The position numbers and the translations under genes were made by a program. Positions 310-11,102 of a stretch of 64,000 bases of DNA are shown one piece after another (the stretch's first letter is position 1; every line of letters begins with the position of its first letter). Under the pieces are notes generated by a model. That model saw nothing but the letters and a program-made list of their open reading frames with translations. It searched no databases and had not been told where the DNA came from. Origin of the DNA: Acidimicrobiia bacterium (GTDB lineage: Bacteria; Actinomycetota; Acidimicrobiia; Spongiisociales; ZC4RG35); the NCBI GenBank assembly GCA_050742015.1, contig JBOGEV010000118.1:3962-67961 (forward strand), written 5' to 3'.

Positions 310-380
310 GGGCGCAGAGGTTAGATACCGGCAACCGGTAGCCGGGCCACATGCTCGATCCTGGGGTATAACGTGCGCTT

Positions 381-998
381 GTGAATGAAATCCCAAAGGC
401 CACGGTGGTCAGGCTCCCCCGGTACCTCCGTCTGCTGGAGGACCTGGACTCATCCCGGGATGTGATCAGCTCCGAGGAACTGGCGGTGGCGGCCGGGGCC
501 AACGCAGCGAACGTTCGACGCGACCTCTCTCACCTCGACTTCCACGGGGTCCGTGGCATCGGGTACTCGGTTGGCGAGCTGATGGCCCGGATCCGCCAGG
601 AGCTCGGCATCGCCGAAAGGAGGCGGGTTGCCATCGTCGGAGCCGGCAACCTGGGCCGAGCCCTGGCCAACTACGGAGGGCTGGGACGACGCGGATTCGA
701 TGTAGTCGCCCTTTACGACACCGACGTCCGAAAAGTGGGCTCCAAGGTCGGAAGTGTCACCATCCAGCACCTCGACGTCCTCGACGGTGACTCTCGTTCC
801 GACCTCTTCGAGATCGCCATCCTGGCCGTGCCTGCCGTCGCCGCCCAGCAGGTCGCCGACCGTCTGGTCGAGCACGGGATCCGTTCCATCCTCAACTTCG
901 CCCCGGTCCGGGTCAAGGTTCCCGAAACGGTCTCCGTTCGCCAGGTCGACCTCTCGATGGAGCTACAGGTGTTGAGCTACTACGGCTCCCGTCTTTGA
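381..998 (+). CDS. rex: Redox-sensing transcriptional repressor Rex
   Basis: 205 aa with a GTG start. N-terminal IPKATVVRLPRYLRLL DNA-binding block and VAIVGAGNLGRALANY Rossmann NAD(H) site. Confidence 0.9.
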   Translation: MNEIPKATVVRLPRYLRLLEDLDSSRDVISSEELAVAAGANAANVRRDLSHLDFHGVRGIGYSVGELMARIRQELGIAERRRVAIVGAGNLGRALANYGGLGRRGFDVVALYDTDVRKVGSKVGSVTIQHLDVLDGDSRSDLFEIAILAVPAVAAQQVADRLVEHGIRSILNFAPVRVKVPETVSVRQVDLSMELQVLSYYGSRL

Positions 999-1173: not shown

Positions 1174-1545
1174 CTAAGCCGAGGACTTCTCTTGTACCTC
1201 TTCGTATTGGTGGAGGGCGACCAGGAAAGCCAGGAACAGGACCAGGGAGACCAACAAATAGGTGATCGGGATGATCCGGATTTCCAAGGCGTTGAGACCC
1301 TCGATGTCGTCGGGCTTGGGGCCACGAGGGGCATAGACCACGAACAGCATCGAGGTGATCGTCAGCCAGCCAAACACCGCCGACCCGGTCACCAGAAAAC
1401 CAAGCCTCTTGCCCAAATTGGTCCAGTTGAACAGGTAGATCGAGCCGTAGAACAACAACACCGCGCCCAGGGTCAAGATGATCCCGGTGACGAAGAGGTT
1501 GGCCGAAAACAACGACCGGAAGAACTCACGGAAGAACACTGACAC
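1174..1545 (-). CDS. Small polytopic membrane protein, last gene of the Rieske/cytochrome b operon
   Basis: 123 aa with 3-4 hydrophobic spans. Overlaps the upstream cytochrome c gene by 20 nt. No family recognised. Confidence 0.55.
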   Translation of the reverse strand: MSVFFREFFRSLFSANLFVTGIILTLGAVLLFYGSIYLFNWTNLGKRLGFLVTGSAVFGWLTITSMLFVVYAPRGPKPDDIEGLNALEIRIIPITYLLVSLVLFLAFLVALHQYEEVQEKSSA

Positions 1546-3448
1546 CCTCCTTCCCGTCCATGTTTCCGGCCCTCAAGAACCGGGCCAACAACTTGATGTC
1601 CTCCACGGCGAGACTTGGACCGAAAGCAGGCATCCGGCCGGAGCCGAATCCGTTAAGACCGTACGGGGTCTCAGCCTCCGAGCCTCGGATCAGGAATTGG
1701 AGCAGGAGGTCGTCCTCGGGGTTCTCGGTGGCATCGCCGAACTGAACGGTGGGCCGGCCGTCCCACAGGGCGGGACCGAAGCCGCCCGAGCCCGCCTCCT
1801 GGGTGTAGGGGACACCGGCACTGAATCCCGCGGTGTGACAACGAGCACAGTTGGAGTTGAAGAGGCCGACAGCCCGCTCCGCCTCCTCGACCGAAGACCC
1901 CATGGCCTCGGCCACGCCATCGAAGTCGATGGAGTACAGCTGGGCCTCGAGTGACTCCTCGAGGAAGTCGAGACCGGCGCCTTCGGTGTCCAGAAGCGTC
2001 TTCTGGTTGTCGGTCGCCACGGTGAGCTGGGAGGCCAAACCCTCCAGGCTCCCGACGAAGGCGCTGGCGGTGGCGGCGTCCGGCTCGCCTCCGACCGAGG
2101 CCGGGTTGGTCGGGTCGAGGCTGATCAGGGTGATCTCGGAGGGTGTGGTGGCCGTGATCGCCGCCCCGACCTGGGTCGTGATGTCGTTCTCGGCAGCGGT
2201 GGAGAGCCCGTCCCCGTCGGGATCGGAGCCGCCCTCGATGGCGGCCGTCGTGGTGGCGAGCAACTCGGTGGCCGCTTCGATCGGTTCCTCAGCTGTCGTC
2301 GCCGCCTCCAGGGCAGCGGCCAGCTCGTTGGCTCCGTCCAGGTCTTCGACGACGCCCGGGACCTCGATCCCCGCCGCCTCAGCGGCGGCACGGGTCTCCT
2401 CGATCTCGGTCAGAGCAGCGGTGCTGAGCCCCACGGCCGGGTCGACGGAGCCGGCCTCGATGGCCGCCTCGACCGCAGCCACGTTGTTGAGGACGATGGG
2501 ATCGGTCTCCGAGGCGGTCTGGAGGGCGGCCAGCGCCTCATCGGCCAGCTCGGCATCCGGTGTCTCCGGGTCGAGGGTCACCGGCTCCATGATGCGGAAC
2601 CCGTCCACGGCCTCCTGGGAGATGGCGCTGAGCTCGGTCTCGGCGGCATCGGAAAGGCCGTCGGCATCGGTGTCCAGCCCGGTGCCCGCTCCGTCGAGAG
2701 CCTGGCGCGAGGCGGTCGCCAACGGCACCAGGAGGTCGGCGTCGGCCGGCGCCGATTCGATGTCGGCGACTACCTGGCTCTGGGTCAGGATGGCGGCTTC
2801 CACGGTGGCGTCGGCACCTTCCAGCGTGCCCAGGGCAGCGCTTATGCCGGGCTCCACCTCTCCCAACGCCTCGGGTTGGGAGATCTGGATCGTCTTCAAA
2901 TAGTTGACGACGTCGACCACCTGCTCCTCGTTGAGAGGCCCGCCACCGGGGACCCCCCAGGCCGGCATCGGGGTGTTGCCCCGCCCGTAGGTGACCCAGA
3001 AATTGACCTCGTCCTCGTCGTACCGGAAGAAGACATCGTTGAGGGAGGGTGCCGCCCAGCTCACGGTCACGCCCGACCGCTTCTCGACATAGGGGGCAAC
3101 CCCACCCGAGCCCTCGGGGCCATGGCAGGAGAAGCAGGCGAACTCCTCCACGATGTGGTCGCCGCGCGCAATGGAACCCGCGGCGAACTCGTCGACGAAG
3201 CCCTGCTGTCGGGCGGGCTCGGTGAGGAAGTACAAAGGGAGGGATATGGCGAGAAAGGCGGAGAACGCAATGGCCGCCTTTTGCCCGCCCTCGAGGCGGC
3301 GGGTCTCGATCTGTTCGTCGTCGATCCCGGGTCGGAGGTTGAGCGACACCTCCTCGCCACCACGGTTGCGGATGGCCGACACGAAGAGCATGCCCAGCCA
3401 GGCGATGCCGGCAACGACGGCGATGACCGTGATGATGCCGGCGGTCAT
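1526..3448 (-). CDS. Membrane-anchored dihaem c-type cytochrome (QcrC-like) with a long acidic insert between the haem domains
   Basis: 640 aa. Two CxxCH motifs (CFSCH aa105-109, CARCH aa534-538) and N-terminal TM helices. ATGA overlap with the Rieske gene at 3445-3448. Confidence 0.8.
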   Translation of the reverse strand: MTAGIITVIAVVAGIAWLGMLFVSAIRNRGGEEVSLNLRPGIDDEQIETRRLEGGQKAAIAFSAFLAISLPLYFLTEPARQQGFVDEFAAGSIARGDHIVEEFACFSCHGPEGSGGVAPYVEKRSGVTVSWAAPSLNDVFFRYDEDEVNFWVTYGRGNTPMPAWGVPGGGPLNEEQVVDVVNYLKTIQISQPEALGEVEPGISAALGTLEGADATVEAAILTQSQVVADIESAPADADLLVPLATASRQALDGAGTGLDTDADGLSDAAETELSAISQEAVDGFRIMEPVTLDPETPDAELADEALAALQTASETDPIVLNNVAAVEAAIEAGSVDPAVGLSTAALTEIEETRAAAEAAGIEVPGVVEDLDGANELAAALEAATTAEEPIEAATELLATTTAAIEGGSDPDGDGLSTAAENDITTQVGAAITATTPSEITLISLDPTNPASVGGEPDAATASAFVGSLEGLASQLTVATDNQKTLLDTEGAGLDFLEESLEAQLYSIDFDGVAEAMGSSVEEAERAVGLFNSNCARCHTAGFSAGVPYTQEAGSGGFGPALWDGRPTVQFGDATENPEDDLLLQFLIRGSEAETPYGLNGFGSGRMPAFGPSLAVEDIKLLARFLRAGNMDGKEGVSVLP

Positions 3449-4335
3449 GCCTCAGCCACAGCGCTGATGCAGCTCGGCCCCTGGGGGTACTCGACACTTG
3501 GCGCGGGTGCCCGGGGCGTTTCGATGATATCCCCGGTCCTGATGAAGAAATTGCCCCCGCGGTTCTCCACGACGAACCGATCGAGGTTGCGTGGCGCGGG
3601 CCCGCCGAAGTACTCACCGGCGGCGTTGTACCTCGAGCCATGGCAGGGGCACTCGAAGCCCTGGGACGGTGCGCACCACGGGACCCGGCACCCGAGATGG
3701 ACACAACGCATGTAGAGCGCCATGAGACCGTCGGTGGCCACGCTCTTGCCCTCGAACTGCTCGGACAGTTCTTGCGGAGCGGGGACCAGGTAGGCCCGGG
3801 CCTCGGGGATGAACAGTGGCAGCACCCCCCCGGTCGATGTGAACACTTGTGAGCGGAGATCGGCAACGGGCCCGGCATCGATATCGGCGCCGAAACCTCC
3901 GGTCAGCTTGGGCCAGAAGAAGGCGAGGTAGTAGAGACCTTGGGCGGCGAGAAAAGTGCCGAAGGTGGCAGTGATGGCCCGATTGAAGAACTGGCGCCGG
4001 CTCACCCCACCCTCCTCGGGCGACACCTCGACTATCCGTTGCTCCTCGATGATCTGGACGCCGGCTCCGGCCCCATTCGCCTCGACCGGCACCGGCTCGA
4101 GCTCCTCAGGCTCGGCCACCTCCTCGACCTCGGGCTCGGCCACGGTCACGACCCGGGGAGGGATGGTCACGGTCCGGGCCGACCTGTCGGCGACTCTGGT
4201 CTCCTCGGTCACCCCAGCGAAGGGATCGGGTTTCTCGGCGGTTTGGGACCGGCGATAGGCGACCGCGAACGCCCCGGCCGCCCCGAGGATCGCCACCACG
4301 GCGACGGCAATCAGGGCGGCGTTGGTCAAGGTCAT
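3445..4335 (-). CDS. Rieske [2Fe-2S] subunit of a cytochrome bc-type complex
   Basis: 296 aa. CVHLGC...CPCHGS Rieske boxes and an N-terminal TM anchor. ATGA overlaps at both ends. Confidence 0.9.
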   Translation of the reverse strand: MTLTNAALIAVAVVAILGAAGAFAVAYRRSQTAEKPDPFAGVTEETRVADRSARTVTIPPRVVTVAEPEVEEVAEPEELEPVPVEANGAGAGVQIIEEQRIVEVSPEEGGVSRRQFFNRAITATFGTFLAAQGLYYLAFFWPKLTGGFGADIDAGPVADLRSQVFTSTGGVLPLFIPEARAYLVPAPQELSEQFEGKSVATDGLMALYMRCVHLGCRVPWCAPSQGFECPCHGSRYNAAGEYFGGPAPRNLDRFVVENRGGNFFIRTGDIIETPRAPAPSVEYPQGPSCISAVAEA

Positions 4336-5495
4336 TCGAACTGCACCCAGTCCTTGAGGTCGTCGAAGAAGACTCCGTCCTGCCAGGGGTAGGAGAAGTT
4401 GAAGCCGAGACCGCGGAACAGCACGCCGAAGATGGTGAGCGTGGCCGCCCCAGCGAGGAACACCGAATAGAGGGCGATGGCGAACTTGCGGTCACTGGGC
4501 CTGGTCGATGGGTTCTTGTCGACGTAGGGCACCAAGAAGAACCCGATGATCCCGGTGACGGTCGGGATCATCACCCCGGCGATCTGAGGGTCGAAGTAGG
4601 ACAGCAGCTCCTGCAGACCGAGGAAGTACCACGGCGCCTTCGACGGGTTGGGAGTGGCGTTGAAGTTGGCCGGATCGAGCAACGGGGAGTGGATGATCAC
4701 CGACAGGATCACCAGGAATCCGGTGATGGCCAGGAGCGCCCCGAACTCCATCAGCATCAGGTGGGGCCAGGTGTTGACCTTGTCCGTGGGCTCCGCTTTG
4801 ACAGCCTGGATCGCCCTGGCCTTGACCACGGTGAGCAGACGCTGGGAGCGCACCCCTTCCGGTGTCCCCTTCGGCGGGACGGTGGGACGGGGGCTGACCA
4901 AAGCCGCCACCTTGCCATTGCCGGCGCCATCGCCCTCCGGAGCGGGGCGATCCTCGACTGCGGTGGCCACGGACGCGGCGGCGGGCTCGGCCGTGGTCGC
5001 GGCCGCTATCTCCTCGGCGGGGGGAGTTCCCCCAGGCTCACCGGGGGCCGCGGGTTCGGCCGCAGGCTCGGCCGCTGGCTCCTCTGTGGCCGACTCCGGC
5101 GGGGACACGGCTTGTTCACTGTCTTCCACCGGCGGCGCTTCGGTGGGCGGGGCAGGGGAAACCTCGGCTTCAGTCTCGGCCTCCACCTCGGGCTCGGCGT
5201 CGGCGGCGTCATCGACCGGGGCCTCTTCCACCGGCTCCGGCTCGTCTTCGACCGACTCGATTGCCTCTTCGATCTCCTCGGAGCGCTCGGCGGCCTCCTC
5301 CATCTCCTCGGCCACGGTCTCTTCAGAGGCCGCCGCGGACTCGGCCTCGCCAGCCGGCTCCGGTTCGGCCGACGGGGGCGGAGTGGGCGGTGCCTCGCCT
5401 TTCATCTCGGCCAGGACCTGCTCAACGGGCAGCCCCAACGCCTTGGCCTTGGCCTCAGCCGACCTTCTGAGAAGACTCTCTGGGATTTCGGTCAT
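4332..5495 (-). CDS. Cytochrome b C-terminal half / subunit IV-type protein with a long acidic N-terminal extension
   Basis: 387 aa. The C-terminal 3-TM region carries NPSKAPWYFLGLQELL (PEWY-type Qo motif region). The N-terminus carries the shared RSA..A.A...G..V..VL module plus a Glu/Ala/Pro-rich linker. Confidence 0.85.
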   Translation of the reverse strand: MTEIPESLLRRSAEAKAKALGLPVEQVLAEMKGEAPPTPPPSAEPEPAGEAESAAASEETVAEEMEEAAERSEEIEEAIESVEDEPEPVEEAPVDDAADAEPEVEAETEAEVSPAPPTEAPPVEDSEQAVSPPESATEEPAAEPAAEPAAPGEPGGTPPAEEIAAATTAEPAAASVATAVEDRPAPEGDGAGNGKVAALVSPRPTVPPKGTPEGVRSQRLLTVVKARAIQAVKAEPTDKVNTWPHLMLMEFGALLAITGFLVILSVIIHSPLLDPANFNATPNPSKAPWYFLGLQELLSYFDPQIAGVMIPTVTGIIGFFLVPYVDKNPSTRPSDRKFAIALYSVFLAGAATLTIFGVLFRGLGFNFSYPWQDGVFFDDLKDWVQFE

Positions 5496-5504
5496 AACGA
5501 CTCC

Positions 5505-6281
5505 TTAGAGCGGCCCGGATATCCCGCCATCCTTGCGCACCCGCCAGAAATGGACGGCGAGGAAGAGCACGAGGATGAACGGCAACGCCAGCACGTGCAG
5601 GACATAGAAGCGGAGCAGGGTGGCGCCGGAGACCTCCACTCCGGCGAGGAGGGCGAACTTGACCTGGCTGCCGACGACGGGGACGAAGCCGGCCATGTTG
5701 GTTCCGACCGTCACCGCCCACAGCGCAAGCTGGTCCCAGGGGAGGAGATATCCGGAGAAAGAGAGGAGCAGGGTCAGGAACAGGAGCACCACGCCGACCA
5801 CCCAGTTGAACTCCCGGGGCGGCTTGTACGCGCCGTGATAGAAGACCCGGCTCATGTGCAGGAACACCGAGAGCACCATCAGATGGGCCCCCCATCGGTG
5901 CATGTTCCGTACCAGAGACCCGAAGGCAACGTTGGTGGACAGAGCCTCGATGTCCGCATAGGCCGTCTCCGCCGACGGCGTGTAATAGAACATGAGGAAG
6001 ATCCCGGTGATGGTCAGCAGGATGAACAGGAAGAAGCTGAGCCCACCCAGACACAGGGTGTAGGAGAGCCTGACCCCGTGCCGCTTTACCTTCACCGGGT
6101 GGAGGTGATAGAGCACGTTGTTCATCACCACATACGACCGGTTCCTCGGGCTGTCCGAGTAACCCTTCTTGAAGGGCGAGCCGGGACGCAGGATCGATTC
6201 CGCGACCTGCGAGCCCCAGAGTTTCTCGTTGGCCTCTTTGATTCTGTCCTTGAGTCCGGTCTTACCGTTGCCGTTGGCCAA
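5505..6281 (-). CDS. Cytochrome b6-type protein (N-terminal, haem-binding half of cytochrome b)
   Basis: 258 aa, 4 TM. Conserved His pairs in [12 protein letters not shown] and [22 protein letters not shown]. Stops where b6-type proteins stop. Confidence 0.9.
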
Positions 6282-6289
6282 ACCGCCTC

Positions 6290-6739
6290 CTACCAGCGCA
6301 TTCCATAGGCGTATCCATTCTTGAAGTCACGTTGCCCGGTGTCGAGATCCCACGGGCGCCGATCGAGGCCGAGCTCGGCGGCCTGGTCGGCCAGTGAGCC
6401 CTCGAACTTGCCCAGGGTGATGACATTGGTCGGGCAGCGGTCGACGCAGAGAGCACATCTGGTGCACTCGTCTTCGTCGACAACGAAGAAACCAAGGTTC
6501 TGAGGGTCGTCCCCCGGGTGGTCGACGTTGACCCCTTCGGTGATGGCATCCAGAGACAGGTAGTGGATGCACTTCCAGGGGCAGATGTCGACACAACCCT
6601 CACACAGGATGCACTCCGACTGGTCGATGTGGAGGAACTGCTTCGGGCGCAGTTTGTCGGTGAAGTAGTCACCTTCGACCACCGCCAACTGGTAGTCATC
6701 GCGGTACGGAGGGGTCTCGTCGACGACACCCTTGGGCAT
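6290..6739 (-). CDS. 2x[4Fe-4S] ferredoxin-domain protein encoded inside the bc operon
   Basis: Internal ATG of track ORF 6290..7297 at 6739; 149 aa. Motifs [12 protein letters not shown] and [16 protein letters not shown] overlap with the upstream gene's stop, and 8 nt upstream of the b6 gene. Confidence 0.85.
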
Positions 6740-7344
6740 CAGCCTTCTCCCCTCACCAATGGCCGCCCGTATGGCGACCTCACTTCGGGCTTCTCCGCCG
6801 ACGGCGGCGGCCCCTGTCTGATCTTCTGCAACTGGATGGTGAACACCGCGGCCGCAACCAGCATCACGATGTGATATCCCATCGAGATGGAGTCCTTGAT
6901 GGCGGCCCAGCTGAGCTGGACATCGTTGCCCAACACCAAGAACGGCGGGATGGCGACGGCCACCCTCTGCGACGACCAGTCGAGATCGGTCTGAGCGAAG
7001 TTGAGCCATTCCGAGGGAACCATCCCGAAGATGAGGACCAGCTCGATCCAGGTGATGAAAGAGGCGAACAGGGCCCGAGCCCAGGTCATCTTCAGGTTGA
7101 GCACCCAGACGAAAAGGGCGCCGACGACCAGCATCTGGGAAGCGGCGAACACCACGAGGTAGCCGAGGCCCTTGAGGATGTGACCTCTCGGGATCCAGTC
7201 GAAGAAGCCGGCATCCTGCTCCGGAGGGAGACTGGTGAAGTGGATCCAGATCACCCCGACGACCAGAGCGAGAAAGCCGAGCCCGAGCAACCCCCATCCG
7301 ATGCTCTTGCGTCTGCTGTCACTCAGTTCTGCCAGGCGGTACAT
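6739..7344 (-). CDS. Polytopic membrane protein, first gene of the bc operon (family not recognised)
   Basis: 201 aa with about 5 hydrophobic spans. Translationally coupled (ATGA) to the ferredoxin gene. Confidence 0.55.
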   Translation of the reverse strand: MYRLAELSDSRRKSIGWGLLGLGFLALVVGVIWIHFTSLPPEQDAGFFDWIPRGHILKGLGYLVVFAASQMLVVGALFVWVLNLKMTWARALFASFITWIELVLIFGMVPSEWLNFAQTDLDWSSQRVAVAIPPFLVLGNDVQLSWAAIKDSISMGYHIVMLVAAAVFTIQLQKIRQGPPPSAEKPEVRSPYGRPLVRGEG

Positions 7345-7501
7345 CTCTCGTCTTCGGGTGCGGTCGAATTACCTGTTCACGTCGTTTGTACCACAACCCG
7401 GGTGTCGTTACAGAACCTGGCGAGCGCGTCAGGGGTGTCTGCGGAAGGAATCGGCCGAGCAGTTATGCTCCCGCCCGTCCCGTTCCGCGACGAGGGAACC
7501 G

Positions 7502-8974
7502 TTGGCCGCAACCCAAACTGCAGATATCAGGGCCCTGCTCGGAGCGGGCGCCGAGGATCGGGTCGCTGCCGCCCACTTCCTGGCCGGCGCCATGTTCCTG
7601 GTCTTGGCCGGCGCCCTGGAGCTCCTCGCCCTTTTCTCTCTGAGGTTCGCCGGGCTCTCGCCGGTGAGCTTCGGCCGGGCGGAGTCGATGGCCAATGTCA
7701 CCGTCATGCTCGGTTTCCTGGTGCTGACCCTGTCCGGAGGCATCTACTACGTGCTCCCCCGTCTCACCGGTACCAGGCTCTGGCGAAAGGAACTGGCCAT
7801 CCTCGGCCTGGTCGGAACATCGGGGCTAGTCGTCATCGACGTGCTCGCGGTGGTCCTCGGTCTCGGCGACGGCCGTCAGCCGTTCGGGCTTCCCTGGTGG
7901 CTCCACATCCCGATGCTCGGACTGCTGGCCATCCCGTTCGCCATCACCATGATGACGATCCGGCGAAGGGAGGAGAAGCGAAGCTTCGTCACGCTCTGGT
8001 TCGTCATCGGCGGCGCGACGTGGCTCCCACTGCTCTATCTGGTCTACTTCGCCGGCGAGCTGCCTTTTGTGTCCTCGTTGGGCGAGGCGTACACAGACCT
8101 CTTCTTCACCGCCGGCTTCGTCACACTCTGGGTGTTCACGGTGGGCAGCGGGCTCTTCTATTACACCGTCGTGAAGGAGCTCGAGATTCCCCTTGCCTCC
8201 CGTCAACTGGCCTCGGTCGGCTTCTGGTCGCTCGGTTTCGCCGCGGTTTGGTGGGGGACGGCTCAGCTCGTGTTCGGCCCCGGTCCGGGCTGGATCGCCG
8301 GCGTCTCGGCGGCGCTCGGGCTTGCCTTCCCAATCGGAGCATTGGCCAACGCCTCGAGCGTCTCCCTCACTCTCCAGGGGCACTGGGAGAAGCTCGGTGA
8401 GAGGCCGGGCGTCGTGTCGGGGGTCGTCGGCCTCTATCTCGGGGTAGTCGTGGCCGTGCTGGCCAGCTTCGCCTCCTTCCCCTCGGTGGGATCGGTCACC
8501 GCTCTCACTGCATACTGGGAGGCGATCGAGTACGGCGCTCTGTTCGGGGTGGGCACTCTGCTTGCCGCAGGACTCACCTTCGAGGCGTTGCCCAGGGTCT
8601 CGGGTCGCGACCTGAGCTCCCTCGATCGACCACGGTCTTTCAACCGATGGACCGTGATCGGTGTCGGCGGTGTCATGCTCAGCCTCATCGCTTCCGGCCT
8701 CGTCAGCGGTTATTCCTGGGTGGCCGGCTCCAACAGCGCCGCGTATATCAACGCGGGGGAAGGTTGGGCGCAAGGCGCCGGAGCCGCCGAGGTCCTGCTC
8801 CTCATCGCTTTCGGGTTCGGCATCATCGCCTTCATCGGCCAGTTGGCATATGCAGCCACGGTCATCGGCACCATCACCATCGGCCGTGCCGTGCCCCAGG
8901 AGGTGCTGGTCTACGGCTCTGAGGGAGAGCAGAGCGTTGGGACGGTCGCTGTGGAAGAGACCGACGATGAGTGA
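7502..8974 (+). CDS. Haem-copper-oxidase subunit I-like (CcoN-like) 12-TM protein apparently lacking the canonical His ligands
   Basis: Tail of track ORF 7235..8974. Proposed TTG start at 7502 after GAGGGA; the start is uncertain. 12 hydrophobic spans. N-terminal pattern AAAHFLAG...FGRAESMANVTV...GGIYYVLPRL resembles CcoN. Only 3 His in the whole protein. Confidence 0.55.
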   Translation: MAATQTADIRALLGAGAEDRVAAAHFLAGAMFLVLAGALELLALFSLRFAGLSPVSFGRAESMANVTVMLGFLVLTLSGGIYYVLPRLTGTRLWRKELAILGLVGTSGLVVIDVLAVVLGLGDGRQPFGLPWWLHIPMLGLLAIPFAITMMTIRRREEKRSFVTLWFVIGGATWLPLLYLVYFAGELPFVSSLGEAYTDLFFTAGFVTLWVFTVGSGLFYYTVVKELEIPLASRQLASVGFWSLGFAAVWWGTAQLVFGPGPGWIAGVSAALGLAFPIGALANASSVSLTLQGHWEKLGERPGVVSGVVGLYLGVVVAVLASFASFPSVGSVTALTAYWEAIEYGALFGVGTLLAAGLTFEALPRVSGRDLSSLDRPRSFNRWTVIGVGGVMLSLIASGLVSGYSWVAGSNSAAYINAGEGWAQGAGAAEVLLLIAFGFGIIAFIGQLAYAATVIGTITIGRAVPQEVLVYGSEGEQSVGTVAVEETDDE

Positions 8975-9800
8975 GCTGAGCGCGGCCGCCGCAGCCGCCC
9001 TCGGCATCCCCGAGGCCATCGTGGAGCGCTCCGCTGCCGCCCGCGCCGAAGAGACCGGGATGACCGTCGACGAGGTGCTGACGGCATGGGCCGGAGGTGG
9101 AGAAATTCCCGCCGCGGCAGCGCCTCCGACTCCGGAAGAGCAGGCGGCAGAACCCGAGGCGGCCCCGGTCGAGACGCCTGCCGCGGAGGAAGGAGTTCCC
9201 CCCTCCCCGCCTCCGGCGGTACTCCCCCCTTCGGGGGGAGAAACGGGTACCCCCTCCCCGGTGCCGGCCCCGGTCGCCGATTCGGGGAAGCCACCGGTCC
9301 TGGTGGGAGAGGCGGACAACCCGATCGCCGTGCTGGTCGGGGTGGTGGCCATGTTCGTGGCGGTCTTCCTGGTCGGTTTGGTGGGGCCAGCCCTACCCGC
9401 CGAGAATCCGGGGGCCCGATCCAGTGAGCTCCCCTACAGCGAGGCGGGTCTGCGCGGCCAGCACGTCTACTCGTCGGTCGGATGCGCCTCCTGTCACACC
9501 CAGATGGTCCGGCCGGTGGTGGCCGACGTCGGCCTGGGTGCCGTGACCCTCAACGACAGCAACCAGGTGCTCGGCTCCCGGCGTTTCGGCCCCGACCTCT
9601 CCGACGTCGGGTCGAGGATCTCGGGCAGTCAGATCGAAGGCGTGATCGGAGGGCTGGGGGGGCATCCTTCCCAGAGCCTTTCGGCTGAGGATCTCGCCGA
9701 CATCGTCGCCTATTTGCTCGAGTCTCAGACGATGGAGGCGGCTCCGGCAGAGCCAGCCGATGAGGGAGACGCCGACGAAGAGGAGCCGGCGGAGTCATGA
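8967..9800 (+). CDS. CcoO/FixO-like monohaem cytochrome c subunit
   Basis: ATG at 8967 gives an 8-nt overlap with the upstream stop. GCASCHTQMVRP...RRFGPDLSDVG matches the CcoO signature. Order: N-terminal shared module, Pro/Ala/Glu linker, one TM. Confidence 0.7.
   Translation: MSELSAAAAAALGIPEAIVERSAAARAEETGMTVDEVLTAWAGGGEIPAAAAPPTPEEQAAEPEAAPVETPAAEEGVPPSPPPAVLPPSGGETGTPSPVPAPVADSGKPPVLVGEADNPIAVLVGVVAMFVAVFLVGLVGPALPAENPGARSSELPYSEAGLRGQHVYSSVGCASCHTQMVRPVVADVGLGAVTLNDSNQVLGSRRFGPDLSDVGSRISGSQIEGVIGGLGGHPSQSLSAEDLADIVAYLLESQTMEAAPAEPADEGDADEEEPAES
9183..9245. repeat. C-rich repeat element, copy B (inside the linker-coding part of the CcoO-like CDS)
   Basis: See copy A. Contains a perfect CTCCCCCC-TTCG-GGGGGGAG hairpin (9222..9240). 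In frame it encodes VPPSPPPAVLPPSGGETG. Confidence 0.55.
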
Positions 9801-10846
9801 GCGAGCTCAGCGCCGCAGCGGCCGCCGCGCTCGGTGTCCCCGAGCCGATCGTCGAGCGGTCGGCGGCAGCCCGGGCCGCCGAGACCGGGATGACCGTCGA
9901 CGAGGTGCTCTCGGCCTGGGCGGGCGGTGGAGCCGTCGCCGCTGCGACGCCGGCCGCAGCCGAGGAGACGCCCGCAGCCGAGCCGGAGGCAGAGGCGCCC
10001 GCCGAGGAAGCCGGCCCCGCGCCGGCGCCGGAGATGCCCTCCGAACCCGTGGCACCTGCCGCCGCGGCCCAGCCCTCCGCCGTCACCCGCTCCCCGATCC
10101 CGGCCGAGGTGACCGCAGCCGAGGCGGCGAGCCTGCCCGAGGTGGTCACCGTTCCCACCGCCGGCATCCGGGAAAAGACCAACTTCGTCGTCCCCCGCTG
10201 GCTGGCGGCGGTTTTCCTGATCATCCCGGCATTCGCACTGTTCGCCCTCGGCGGCTCAGCCACCGGCGAGTGCGGAGACGCCACCGAGTTGAGCACCGAT
10301 GTGATCACCGGTGAGGTGGTCAATTGCGATGGAACCGAGTTCACCGGCTCGGGCGCCGGTGGCGGCGGTTCCGACTTCATCGCCATGGGTGAGGACGTCT
10401 ATGCCAATGTTGCTAGCTGCGACGGATGTCATGGCGCCACCGGTGGTGGTGGCGTCGGTCCGGCGTTCGGAAGCGTCGTCTCCACTTTTGGTGCCTGTGC
10501 CGACCATATCGAATGGGTGACACTGGGATCGGCGGGCTTCGAAGCAGCGGGTGAGAGCACTTATGGAGACCCGAACAAGCCCATTGCCGGGGGCATGCCC
10601 CCGTTCGGTGGGACCTTGAGCGAGGAGCAATTGGCCGCGGTGGTCGCCTTCGAGCGGGTCCGCTTCGGTGGGGCGGACCCCGCCGAGACCCTCGTCGATT
10701 GCGGTCTGGCCCCGGCCGAAGGGGAGGAAGGCGGCGAGGGCGAGGCGCCCGGTGAGGAGACCCCCGGTGAAGAGGCGCCGCCCGAGGGAGAGGCGACCAC
10801 CACCACCGTGAGTGGCGCCGAAGCCGGACTCAGCCAGACTCCCTGA
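9797..10846 (+). CDS. Membrane-anchored class I c-type cytochrome (CcoP-like role possible)
   Basis: 349 aa. CDGCH haem motif and GGMPPFGG Met-ligand region. Same N-terminal module as the upstream gene. ATGA overlap at 9797-9800. Confidence 0.8.
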   Translation: MSELSAAAAAALGVPEPIVERSAAARAAETGMTVDEVLSAWAGGGAVAAATPAAAEETPAAEPEAEAPAEEAGPAPAPEMPSEPVAPAAAAQPSAVTRSPIPAEVTAAEAASLPEVVTVPTAGIREKTNFVVPRWLAAVFLIIPAFALFALGGSATGECGDATELSTDVITGEVVNCDGTEFTGSGAGGGGSDFIAMGEDVYANVASCDGCHGATGGGGVGPAFGSVVSTFGACADHIEWVTLGSAGFEAAGESTYGDPNKPIAGGMPPFGGTLSEEQLAAVVAFERVRFGGADPAETLVDCGLAPAEGEEGGEGEAPGEETPGEEAPPEGEATTTTVSGAEAGLSQTP

Positions 10847-10853
10847 CCCAGGG

Positions 10854-11102
10854 TCACACCCGGCGCAGTGCCCGTCGCAATGATGCCCGATCGATCCGAC
10901 CCTCGGCGACCACGTCATCGCCGGGCCCGAGAAGCACCGGGATCCGCATTCCGTAGTCCCTGATCAACACGTCATCGGTGTCGATATCGACTTCTTCCAG
11001 GGTCCCGCCCCGTCGTCGAATCGCCCGTTCTACCAGGGGACGAGCCTCATCACAGAGATGGCATCCGGGTCGGGTGAAAAATTTGAAGGCTAAATGTTTC
11101 AA
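10854..11102 (-). CDS. Glutaredoxin-like small thiol-disulfide protein (DUF836-type)
   Basis: 82 aa. FTRPGCHLCDEA CxxC motif in a thioredoxin-fold context. TTG start. Confidence 0.75.
   Translation of the reverse strand: MKHLAFKFFTRPGCHLCDEARPLVERAIRRRGGTLEEVDIDTDDVLIRDYGMRIPVLLGPGDDVVAEGRIDRASLRRALRRV

What the first reader, a model, noticed from the sequence alone, without database searches (positions are those of the whole stretch)
7502..10846. CcoN-like 12-TM protein apparently stripped of all haem/Cu histidine ligands, kept in an operon with two intact c-type cytochromes
This operon is divergent from the bc operon. Its genes are:
- a 12-TM protein (7502..8974)
- a CcoO-like monohaem subunit starting 8 nt before the upstream stop; GCASCHTQMVRP...RRFGPDLSDVG fits the FixO/CcoO signature
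- a third cytochrome c coupled by an ATGA overlap

The 12-TM protein follows the cbb3 subunit I pattern at three places. AAAHFLAG...FGRAESMANVTVMLGF...GGIYYVLPRL corresponds to the family pattern HF..A...fGRlR.lHTNavif...yy..qR. LFYYTVVKELEIPLASRQLASVGFW corresponds to yY..Pk...p.yS.rLs..FW.

At every position where haem-copper oxidases have an invariant His, my by-eye alignment finds another residue. Those positions are the helix-2 haem ligand, the CuB His, the CuB HH pair and the helix-10 HxH. The residues found there are M, F, A-Q and I/Y. The whole protein has only three His (AAAH, WWLH, LQGH). This suggests a cofactor-less oxidase scaffold (pseudo-oxidase) that still partners with cytochromes. 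I am not aware of such a thing being described.
Basis: partly seen in the sequence, partly recalled or inferred. Interest (0 to 1): 0.8.

Follow-up and report, generated by a model that had tools for sequence, protein, structure and literature searches.

The report
Ligand-less cbb3 oxidase-like scaffold protein
Soil Acidimicrobiia keep a membrane protein with the full fold of the catalytic subunit of a cbb3 oxygen reductase but none of the six histidines that hold its haems and copper. It stays coupled to intact c-type cytochromes next to the cytochrome bc complex, so it is most likely a redox-dead scaffold that databases wrongly call an oxidase.

Summary
The ORF at 7502-8974 (490 aa) is a true CcoN homologue: Pfam COX1 E=1e-16, profile-profile match to canonical CcoN E=6e-47 with probability 100%, and a predicted structure that matches solved CcoN chains at TM 0.83-0.88. 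All six haem/CuB histidines and the cross-linked tyrosine are replaced in three independent alignments.

The loss is conserved in 115 close homologues. Relatives were found in 112 species genomes, and the best 80 are all uncultured Acidimicrobiia. The gene is under purifying selection (dN/dS about 0.12).

It overlaps a CcoO-like monohaem gene and then a third cytochrome c gene. In every sufficiently long relative locus it lies divergent from a Rieske/cytochrome b operon.

New here: the ligand-less form is a large, diverse radiation (66 of 95 full-length representatives). About 30 of these representatives are fused to the CcoO-like domain. A second ligand-poor lineage sits beside alternative complex III in a Verrucomicrobia MAG.

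No new conserved reactive residue replaces the lost centre. Best reading: a redox-inert scaffold that holds a CcoO-type cytochrome relay on a complex-III-type enzyme. I found no prior description. Cofactor absence and function are inferred, not shown.

The parts
7502..8974 (+). CcoN-like 12-helix protein (490 aa) lacking all six haem/CuB His ligands and the cross-linked Tyr.
   Evidence: Homology and fold. Ligand columns. dN/dS 0.12-0.13.
8967..9800 (+). CcoO/FixO-like monohaem cytochrome c (277 aa). It has an N-terminal cytoplasmic 43-aa motif, an acidic/Pro-rich linker, one TM helix and the CASCH haem site. The canonical distal Met is replaced by His (GGHP).
   Evidence: Pfam FixO 6e-11. PDB CcoO chains 8e-8 to 1e-6. 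CXXCH present in 78/78 and His at the Met position in 77/78. 8-nt overlap with the upstream gene.
9797..10846 (+). Third membrane-anchored monohaem cytochrome c (349 aa). It resembles a single CcoP domain, with CDGCH and GGMPPF motifs, and carries the same N-terminal 43-aa motif.
   Evidence: Pfam Cytochrome_CBB3 3e-8. ATGA overlap. N-terminal motif 91% identical to that of the CcoO-like protein.
7345..7501 (.). Divergent intergenic control region. Conserved blocks are GTTT[C/G]TACCACAA (7383-7396), AGTTATGCTCCCGCC (7462-7478) and an ACGAGG ribosome-binding site before the start at 7502.
   Evidence: Alignment of 15 orthologous intergenic regions. No sigma-70 consensus match was found.
6739..7344 (-). 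Conserved 201-aa membrane protein of unknown family, first gene of the divergent bc operon.
   Evidence: No Pfam or NCBIfam hit. Present in all relative loci that reach it.
6290..6742 (-). Soluble 2x[4Fe-4S] ferredoxin-type subunit (150 aa) inside the bc operon.
   Evidence: Pfam Fer4 1e-12. It is the most conserved gene of the locus, dN/dS 0.01-0.05.
5505..6281 (-). Cytochrome b6-type N-terminal half of cytochrome b.
   Evidence: Pfam Cytochrome_B 1e-47.
4332..5495 (-). Subunit-IV-type C-terminal half of cytochrome b. It has a long acidic N-terminal extension that begins with the shared 43-aa motif.
   Evidence: Pfam Cytochrom_B_C 5e-7. Motif hits.
3445..4335 (-). Rieske [2Fe-2S] protein.
   Evidence: Pfam Rieske 1e-7.
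1526..3448 (-). Dihaem cytochrome c (640 aa) with a long acidic insert between the two haem domains.
   Evidence: Pfam Cytochrome_CBB3 8e-15 in two stretches. CXXCH at two sites.
1174..1545 (-). Small conserved membrane protein (123 aa), last gene of the bc operon.
   Evidence: No Pfam hit. Syntenic in relatives.
381..998 (+). Rex-type redox-sensing repressor gene, syntenic with the locus.
   Evidence: Orthologues carry Put_DNA-bind_N and CoA_binding domains. Synteny.
10854..11102 (-). Glutaredoxin-like small protein, syntenic downstream neighbour.
   Evidence: Pfam Glrx-like in orthologous loci. Synteny.

Best explanation
The 490-aa protein descends from the catalytic subunit (CcoN) of a cbb3-type haem-copper oxidase. 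It has lost the low-spin haem, the high-spin haem, CuB, the Ca site and the proton-path residues, so it can no longer reduce O2 or NO.

It is retained as a redox-inert 12-helix membrane scaffold. Its role is to dock and stabilise the CcoO-type monohaem cytochrome c, and probably also the third, CcoP-like anchored cytochrome c.

Together these form a cytochrome-c module. The module is made with, and most likely physically attached to, the adjacent menaquinol-oxidising Rieske/cytochrome b complex. It would take electrons from that complex on the outer face of the membrane and pass them to a separate terminal reductase, probably an A-family oxidase encoded elsewhere.

Shown:
- homology and fold;
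- loss of all ligands;
- conservation and purifying selection;
- invariable linkage or fusion to CcoO;
- invariable linkage to a complex-III-type operon.

Inferred:
- absence of cofactors;
- physical complex with the bc enzyme;
- direction and destination of electron flow.
For: 1. True CcoN fold with no ligand.

2. Not a dead gene. There are 115 homologues with at least 61% identity, and relatives in 112 species genomes. dN/dS is 0.12-0.13, the same as the Rieske protein.

3. Column survey of 66 ligand-less against 20 canonical representatives.
- Every position conserved in the ligand-less set is a Gly, Pro, Trp, Tyr or Arg that is also conserved or common in canonical CcoN.
- All cofactor, Ca and proton-path positions have become variable: R57, H60, W102, E122, H207, N208, T215, S240, H243, Y251, H257, H258, N289, Y317, H345, H347, Q406, R437.
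- No new conserved reactive residue appears.

4. Partnership with CcoO.
- The genes are translationally coupled.
- The gene order was the same in every relative locus that reached far enough, among the 83 loci compared.
- About 30 representative clusters of 613-753 aa are His-less CcoN fused to a CcoO domain with CXXCH.

5. Link to complex III.
- The divergent Rieske/cyt b operon is conserved from 86% down to about 28% identity.
- A 43-aa cytoplasmic N-terminal motif is shared by subunit IV of the bc operon and both cytochromes of this operon. It occurs three times per locus in 63 of 86 loci with hits (87 searched).

6. A second ligand-poor lineage follows an ACIII operon in a Verrucomicrobia MAG (L088). 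A form that keeps only two of the six ligand His lies directly upstream of an A-type cox operon (L089).

7. No Cu-ATPase or ccoGHIS-type assembly gene lies within 10 kb of any ligand-less locus examined. A canonical sister, P0217 (L090), is followed by a P-type ATPase.
Against: - No biochemical data exist. Haem or another cofactor bound through non-His ligands or through a partner subunit cannot be excluded.
- A 12-helix protein kept at 60-86% identity seems more than is needed just to anchor a single-helix cytochrome.
- In the window's clade the CcoO-like haem is predicted to be bis-His. That would normally give a low potential, which fits poorly with a simple downhill relay from a Rieske centre.
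- No terminal oxidase was found in the 64-kb window or within 10 kb of the actinobacterial loci, so the electron acceptor is unknown.
- Physical association with the bc complex rests only on synteny and on the shared motif.
Confidence: 0.6

Rival explanations
1. The protein is still a redox or catalytic subunit. It would bind haem or another metal through non-histidine residues (for example Tyr344, Glu340/Glu343 or Gln255 in the WEAIEY and WWGTAQ motifs) and carry out an unknown reaction fed by the CcoO-like cytochrome.
For: Within the Acidimicrobiia clade the replacement residues are highly conserved: Q255 in 115/115, Y344 in 114/115, and E61, E340, E343 invariant or nearly invariant in 40 sequences. 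The CcoO-like haem would otherwise lack an obvious partner. Other HCO families tolerate His/Met or His/Lys haem ligation and one Asp at the active site (PMC11214002).
Against: None of these residues is conserved across the wider ligand-less radiation. The H347 column is Tyr in only 17% and the H258 column is Arg, Gln, Asp or Phe. Position 64 opposite Tyr344 is Ala, so no second axial ligand is available. The Arg residues that hold the haem propionates and the Ca-site Glu are also lost.
Confidence: 0.12
2. The scaffold has been re-used as an ion or proton pathway, a transporter or a sensor. In that case the 12-helix bundle itself does work coupled to the bc complex, rather than merely holding cytochromes.
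For: The whole bundle is kept under constraint comparable to that on the Rieske protein (dN/dS about 0.12). The cytoplasmic-loop motifs shared with CcoN (YYxxPR, YY..P..., FW) are retained. The locus sits next to Rex and, in other clades, next to nuo.
Against: The residues of the C-family proton pathway (T215, S240, H243, Y317, Y251) are not conserved, and no alternative polar chain is conserved across the radiation. The consistent fusion or coupling to a cytochrome points to an electron-transfer context.
Confidence: 0.13
3. It is an assembly artefact, a sequencing error or a recently inactivated pseudogene of a real cbb3 oxidase.
For: Only the annotation as a cbb3-type oxidase subunit I and the ordinary ccoN-O-P-like gene order.
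Against: The same open frame and the same substitutions occur in 115 close homologues and in the 83 loci compared, drawn from independent assemblies. dN/dS is 0.12. The start codon and ribosome-binding site are conserved. The radiation is deep, reaching down to 25% identity.
Confidence: 0.01

Closest known systems
cbb3-type cytochrome c oxidase CcoNOP (C-family haem-copper oxidase; P. stutzeri 3MK7/5DJQ)
   Same: Same 12-helix CcoN fold (TM 0.83-0.88). Same gene order: subunit I, then a CcoO monohaem subunit, then a further anchored cytochrome c. CcoO has the same TM anchor plus the CxxCH...GPDL core.
   Different: 0 of 6 His ligands, no cross-linked Tyr, no Ca-site Glu, no propionate Arg and no proton-path residues. 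The third cytochrome is monohaem rather than dihaem CcoP. The distal ligand of the CcoO haem is His rather than Met in this clade. No ccoQ or ccoGHIS lies nearby. The TIGR00780 score is 87 against a cut-off of 583.
bc1-cbb3 respiratory supercomplexes (R. capsulatus 6XKW, P. aeruginosa 8SMR, alphaproteobacterial 9G83)
   Same: A CcoN/CcoO-type module associated with a Rieske/cyt b complex. The CcoN chains of these entries are the best structural matches.
   Different: There the cbb3 part is the working terminal oxidase. Here it cannot be. Here the association is inferred from divergent-operon synteny and from a shared N-terminal motif, not observed.
Active-site variants of the HCO superfamily (gNOR with one His replaced by Asp; nNOR with His/Met and eNOR with His/Lys low-spin haem; NOD)
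   Same: These are members of the superfamily with altered ligand sets. L089 (P0301) resembles nNOR in having Met at one low-spin haem position.
   Different: Those families keep both haems and a metal site. Murali et al. 2024 state that gNOR is the first HCO family to replace even one active-site His (PMC11214002). The protein here has replaced all of them.
ACIII gene clusters followed by a C-type oxidase in Verrucomicrobia (Methylacidiphilum, Opitutaceae; Refojo 2010 as cited in PMC8498564)
   Same: The Verrucomicrobia MAG locus L088 has the order ActB-ActC-ActD-ActE-...-COX1-FixO-cyt c. This matches the described adjacency of ACIII and 'cbb3'.
   Different: In L088 the COX1 protein keeps only 1 of 6 ligand His. 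The literature treats these as functional cbb3 oxidases. Whether the cultured strains are also ligand-poor was not tested here.
Catalytically dead homologues kept as structural subunits of respiratory complexes (for example the core 1/2 subunits of mitochondrial bc1, which derive from processing peptidases, and CuA-less subunit II of bo3 quinol oxidase). This comparison rests on general knowledge.
   Same: An enzyme fold is retained after loss of its catalytic or cofactor site, as part of an electron-transport assembly.
   Different: I know of no previous case in which subunit I of a haem-copper oxidase, the cofactor-bearing core itself, plays this role.

Membership tests
C-family haem-copper oxidase subunit I (CcoN) | 12-TM HCO fold with significant sequence homology to CcoN profiles | tested here: met
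   Pfam COX1 1e-16. hhalign against canonical CcoN E=6e-47. Foldseek TM 0.83-0.88.
C-family haem-copper oxidase subunit I (CcoN) | Two His axial ligands of the low-spin haem b (H60, H347 in P. stutzeri) | tested here: not met
   A64 and Y344. 0 of 115 homologues have His at either position.
C-family haem-copper oxidase subunit I (CcoN) | Proximal His of the high-spin haem b3 (H345) | tested here: not met
   I342, and Ile or Val in 115/115.
C-family haem-copper oxidase subunit I (CcoN) | Three CuB His (H207, H257, H258) | tested here: not met
   A204 (or F), A254 and Q255.
C-family haem-copper oxidase subunit I (CcoN) | Cross-linked active-site Tyr in helix 7 (Y251) | tested here: not met
   Ala, Gly or Ser in 115/115.
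C-family haem-copper oxidase subunit I (CcoN) | Score above the curated equivalog cut-off (TIGR00780) | tested here: not met
   87.2 bits against a cut-off of 583.
C-family haem-copper oxidase subunit I (CcoN) | Haem b, haem b3 and Cu content; O2 reduction | not testable with these tools
   Needs purified protein.
CcoO / FixO monohaem subunit | N-terminal TM anchor, CxxCH and the conserved ...RP...GPDL...G.R core | tested here: met
   Pfam FixO 6e-11, above the gathering score. PDB CcoO chains 8e-8. CXXCH in 78/78.
CcoO / FixO monohaem subunit | Distal Met ligand in the MP(S/A)Y motif | tested here: not met
   Replaced by His (GGHP) in 77/78 loci of this clade. Met is kept in the fused ligand-less forms and in a canonical fused form.
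cbb3 operon (ccoNOQP with ccoGHIS) | Dihaem CcoP, CcoQ and the assembly genes ccoGHIS nearby | tested here: not met
   The third gene has one CXXCH. No FixG/H/I/S-type genes lie within 10 kb in the loci examined. Canonical sister L090 has a P-type ATPase.
Pseudoenzyme / non-catalytic homologue | Clear homology to an enzyme, loss of catalytic or cofactor residues, and retention under purifying selection | tested here: met
Respiratory III-IV type supercomplex module | Physical association with the Rieske/cyt b complex | not testable with these tools
   Only synteny and the shared N-terminal motif are available. Needs co-purification or cryo-EM.

The most novel reading that the evidence does not exclude
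Cofactor-less descendants of cbb3 oxidase subunit I form a large, unrecognised protein family. It arose at least twice: an actinobacterial lineage linked to Rieske/cyt b, and a lineage linked to ACIII in the one locus long enough to show it, from a Verrucomicrobia MAG. In this reading the family serves as the structural core of a new kind of complex-III accessory module that carries CcoO-type cytochromes. If so, 'cbb3 oxidase' calls in Acidimicrobiia, and possibly in some Verrucomicrobia, are not oxygen reductases at all.
Probability: 0.5. Interest if true: 0.85.

Novelty: new variant of a known kind. Interest (0 to 1): 0.8.

Why it matters
1. The six histidines define the haem-copper oxidase superfamily. 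A recent superfamily-wide survey states that they are completely conserved apart from one substitution in gNOR (PMC11214002). A conserved, widespread clade with none of them shows that the fold has a second, non-catalytic life.

2. It gives a concrete, purifiable candidate for a new accessory module of menaquinol:cytochrome c oxidoreductases in Actinomycetota. That phylum is said to lack cbb3 oxidases (PMC5829832).

3. These genes are annotated by NCBI and JGI as cbb3-type cytochrome c oxidase subunit I or I/II. Metagenome studies read such calls as high-affinity O2 respiration in Acidimicrobiia (for example PMC8357290). If the proteins are redox-dead, those inferences of a microaerobic lifestyle are wrong for this abundant soil and sediment class.

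Tried and rejected
- Sequencing error or pseudogene: rejected.
- A shifted alignment register hiding His ligands: rejected. The three His of the protein lie at positions 25, 135 and 294, far from all ligand columns. Only H25 is conserved within the close clade (112/115), and it is present in only 27 of 66 ligand-less representatives.
- A new conserved metal site: searched for by a column survey and none found across the radiation.
- Another haem-copper oxidase in the window: none detected with a C-family profile. A-family genes might be missed at that sensitivity.
- Scan of genome contigs with the divergent alignment A2: failed because there was no conserved stretch. The closer alignment A1 worked.
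- Third homology search with a profile of the fused forms: added little.
- Cluster look-ups: gave almost no organism names beyond Acidimicrobiia and Actinomycetota.
- AF2 of a fused representative: poor (pLDDT 64, CcoO domain below 50), so not used.
- Model coordinates are not exposed, so I could not check whether the former haem pockets are filled.
- Rex operator search: one site with 2 mismatches at 379-396, not above chance.
- Nine literature searches found no description of a His-less CcoN.

Full report
WHAT IS THERE

The window is about 66% G+C. The target protein is 100% identical to an NCBI MAG protein named 'cbb3-type cytochrome c oxidase subunit I [Acidimicrobiia bacterium]'.

Three + strand genes are translationally coupled:
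- 7502-8974, a 490-aa protein with a TTG start;
- 8967-9800, 277 aa, whose ATG lies 8 nt before the upstream stop;
- 9797-10846, 349 aa, joined by an ATGA overlap.

On the - strand, diverging from 7344, lies a seven-gene operon:
- a 201-aa membrane protein with no family match;
- a 2x[4Fe-4S] ferredoxin;
- a cytochrome b6-type half of cytochrome b;
- a subunit-IV-type half of cytochrome b;
- a Rieske protein;
- a 640-aa dihaem cytochrome c;
- a 123-aa membrane protein.

A Rex-type gene lies at 381-998.

IS IT A CcoN HOMOLOGUE?

Yes.
- Pfam COX1 gives E=1e-16, above the gathering score, over nearly the whole model.
- NCBIfam ccoN gives E=1e-24. The score is only 87 bits against an equivalog cut-off of 583.
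- phmmer finds the solved CcoN chains at 2e-11 to 4e-10.
- A profile of 40 family members aligns to a profile of 14 canonical CcoN with probability 100%, E=6e-47, over 442 columns.
- An AlphaFold2 model built on the family alignment (pLDDT 82.9, pTM 0.85) has 12 long helices.
- The best Foldseek matches in the PDB are CcoN chains of cbb3 oxidases and of bc1-cbb3 supercomplexes, at TM 0.82-0.88 and rmsd about 3 A. cNOR NorB follows at 1e-9 and A/B-family subunit I at 1e-7 to 1e-8.

ARE THE LIGANDS GONE?

Yes. Three independent alignments agree: pairwise phmmer, MAFFT with P. stutzeri CcoN, and hhalign.

| P. stutzeri residue | Window residue |
|---|---|
| H60 | A64 |
| H207 | A204 (F in the pairwise alignment) |
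| Y251 | A or V |
| H257/H258 | A254/Q255 |
| H345 | I342 |
| H347 | Y344 |

The protein has three His in all, at positions 25, 135 and 294.

IS THE LOSS CONSERVED AND SELECTED?

- Among 115 full-length homologues with at least 61% identity, none has His in any ligand column. The replacements are themselves conserved.
- A scan of one genome per species found relatives in 112 genomes. The best 80 are all uncultured Acidimicrobiia MAGs, some of them mislabelled.
- Pairwise dN/dS against six orthologues is 0.12-0.13. That equals the Rieske protein (0.10-0.14). Cytochrome b gives 0.03-0.05 in five of the six comparisons, and the ferredoxin 0.01-0.05.
- The start codon and the ribosome-binding site are conserved.

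This is a working gene, not a relic.

HOW WIDE IS THE PHENOMENON?

An exhaustive search of 1.84 billion representative proteins gave 493 hits. I aligned the 95 full-length representatives among the best 150.
- 66 have no His in any ligand column. They range down to 25% identity to the query.
- Canonical HHYHHHH sequences first appear at E of about 1e-30.

In a neighbour-joining tree most ligand-less sequences form one large clade, separate from canonical CcoN. This is NJ only, so it is tentative.

Inside that clade about 30 representatives of 613-753 aa carry a C-terminal CXXCH domain. Pfam calls the domain FixO, so these are His-less CcoN fused to CcoO.

A second, smaller ligand-poor group comprises P0223, P0233, P0245, P0257, P0267, P0299, P0300 and P0303. 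Its nearest relatives include a canonical sequence (P0217) and forms that keep only two of the six ligand His (P0244, P0301). Ligand loss has therefore probably happened more than once.

CONTEXT IS CONSTANT

In all 83 loci compared, wherever the contig reaches far enough, the order is the same:
- Rex;
- then, on the opposite strand: small protein, dihaem c, Rieske, subunit IV, cyt b, ferredoxin, TM protein;
- then divergently: CcoN-like, CcoO-like, cyt c, followed by a Glrx-like gene.

The fused forms keep the same divergent bc operon, although they share only about 28% identity with the window protein. They are followed by a cytochrome c, a MenJ-like flavoprotein and the nuo operon.

One unfused clade (L086) instead has a multihaem cytochrome and Fe-S proteins upstream. 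It still has FixO downstream and nuo nearby.

Outside Actinomycetota:
- In a Verrucomicrobia MAG (L088), a CcoN-like gene with 1 of 6 His, a FixO gene and a cyt c gene follow an alternative complex III operon.
- In L089, a form that keeps H60 and H207, has Met at the H347 position and lacks the haem b3 and CuB pair, lies with FixO and cyt c directly upstream of an A-type COX1-COX3-COX4-COX2-CtaA operon.
- The canonical sister P0217 (L090) is followed by FixO, cyt c and a P-type ATPase. This matches the usual copper-delivery gene of cbb3 operons.
- No such assembly gene lies within 10 kb of the ligand-less loci.

WHAT IS LEFT IN THE PROTEIN?

I compared 66 ligand-less with 20 canonical representatives column by column.
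- Every position conserved at 75% or more in the ligand-less set is a Gly, Pro, Trp, Tyr, Arg, Thr or Leu that is also conserved or common in canonical CcoN. Examples are FGR before helix 2, YYxxPR after helix 2, YY in helix 6, FW in helix 7 and GPxPxW before helix 8.
- All positions tied to cofactors, the Ca site or the proton path have become variable.
- No new conserved reactive residue appears. No His column is shared by the whole radiation.

This is the signature of a fold kept for its shape and its interfaces, not for chemistry.

THE PARTNERS

The CcoO-like protein matches solved CcoO chains over its TM anchor and haem core. Its CXXCH is invariant in 78 loci. In the window's clade the canonical distal Met of the MPSY motif is replaced by His (GGHP, 77/78). 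The fused ligand-less forms and a canonical fused form keep Met. I infer bis-His ligation and a lower potential in this clade. This is unexplained and is counted against a simple relay.

The third protein is an anchored monohaem class-I cytochrome c with CDGCH and GGMPPF motifs.

Both cytochromes begin with a 43-aa cytoplasmic motif that is 91% identical between them. A weaker copy (40-43% identity, E about 1e-4) begins subunit IV of the bc operon. A profile of the motif finds three copies per locus in 63 of 86 loci with hits (87 searched). It finds tandem copies on subunit IV and on the cytochrome c of the fused clade. This ties the two operons together at the protein level.

MECHANISM I CONSIDER MOST LIKELY (confidence 0.6)

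The CcoN-like protein is a redox-inert membrane scaffold inherited from a cbb3 oxidase. It docks the CcoO-type cytochrome, as CcoN does in cbb3 oxidases, and probably the CcoP-like cytochrome as well. The resulting module is attached to the complex-III-type enzyme encoded next to it. It relays electrons on the outer membrane face to a separate terminal reductase.

What is shown and what is inferred is listed under the best explanation above.

Rivals:
- retained chemistry through non-His ligands (0.12);
- a new ion-path, transport or sensor role for the bundle (0.13);
- artefact or pseudogene (0.01).

COMPARISON WITH WHAT IS KNOWN

By fold and operon the module works like, and derives from, a cbb3 oxidase. 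It fails every cofactor-related membership test for CcoN, so it should not be filed as one.

Murali et al. 2024 state that gNOR is the first HCO family to replace even one active-site His, and that these residues are otherwise completely conserved (PMC11214002). Ekici-lab work states that Actinobacteria are known to lack cbb3 oxidase (PMC5829832).

The adjacency of ACIII and a C-type oxidase in Verrucomicrobia is described (PMC8498564), but it is treated as a functional oxidase.

Nine full-text searches found no description of a ligand-less CcoN. The library lacks most subscription papers, so prior mention cannot be excluded.

VERDICT

I rate it a new variant of a known kind: a pseudo-enzyme family within the haem-copper oxidase superfamily. 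Interest is 0.8. It would surprise specialists, it is directly testable, and it affects how 'cbb3' calls in Acidimicrobiia metagenomes are read.

Noticed in passing
window 6290-6742 (- strand): A soluble 2x[4Fe-4S] ferredoxin-type gene sits inside the Rieske/cyt b operon. It is the most conserved gene of the locus (95-99% aa identity at dS 0.55-1.1; dN/dS 0.01-0.05). A cytoplasmic Fe-S subunit on a bc-type complex is unusual and suggests an electron path on the inner face.
   Followed up: partly
window 8967-9101, 9797-9931 and 5385-5495 (- strand): A 43-aa N-terminal cytoplasmic motif (consensus SDLLAAAAAALGIPEALVERSAEARAAETGMTVDEVLAAWAGG) is shared by the CcoO-like protein, the third cytochrome c (91% identical to each other) and subunit IV of the bc operon. 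There are three copies per locus in 63 of 86 loci with hits (87 searched), and tandem copies in the fused clade. No Pfam match.
   Followed up: partly
window 9669-9680 (GGHP in the CcoO-like protein): The canonical distal Met of the CcoO haem is replaced by His in 77 of 78 Acidimicrobiia loci, but kept as Met in the fused ligand-less forms. This predicts a bis-His, lower-potential haem c in this clade.
   Followed up: partly
window 1526-3448 (- strand): The dihaem cytochrome c of the bc operon has a roughly 350-aa acidic Ala/Glu/Asp/Thr-rich insert between its two haem domains. The insert contains DxDxDG-type repeats (weak TSP3_bac hit).
   Followed up: no
window 7345-7501: The divergent intergenic region holds two blocks conserved across 15 species: GTTT[C/G]TACCACAA at 7383-7396, part of a palindrome spanning 7387-7412, and AGTTATGCTCCCGCC at 7462-7478. 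There is no sigma-70 consensus match. These are likely promoter or operator elements.
   Followed up: partly
window 379-396: A Rex-operator-like site (TTGTGAATGAAATCCCAA, 2 mismatches) overlaps the start of the Rex-type gene. One such match is not above chance (0.46 expected).
   Followed up: yes
L088 1-11163 (Verrucomicrobia MAG GCA_019241085.1): An alternative complex III operon (ActB, NrfD/ActC, ActD, ActE and two unknown genes) is followed by a CcoN-like gene that keeps only 1 of 6 ligand His, then FixO and cyt c. The 'cbb3 next to ACIII' described for Verrucomicrobia may therefore also be ligand-poor.
   Followed up: partly
L089 5613-16974: A CcoN-like protein keeps H60 and H207, has Met at the H347 position, and lacks the haem b3 His and the CuB HH pair. 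With FixO and cyt c it lies directly upstream of an A-type COX1-COX3-COX4-COX2-CtaA operon. It may be an intermediate stage of degeneration that retains a low-spin haem.
   Followed up: partly
L090 103-4899: The canonical (HHYHHHH) sister P0217 of the second ligand-poor group is followed by FixO, cyt c and a P-type ATPase. No such ATPase is seen near any ligand-less locus.
   Followed up: partly
L005, L012-L014, L016, L020-L022, L026, L032, L034-L036, L040, L060: MAGs titled 'uncultured Acidobacteriota bacterium' (MFD series) carry this Acidimicrobiia-type locus at 64-83% identity with full synteny. The taxonomic label in the record title is probably wrong.
   Followed up: no
window 6739-7344 and 1174-1545 (- strand): Two conserved membrane proteins of unknown family (201 aa and 123 aa) flank the bc operon and are syntenic in all relatives. 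They may be further subunits of the complex.
   Followed up: no
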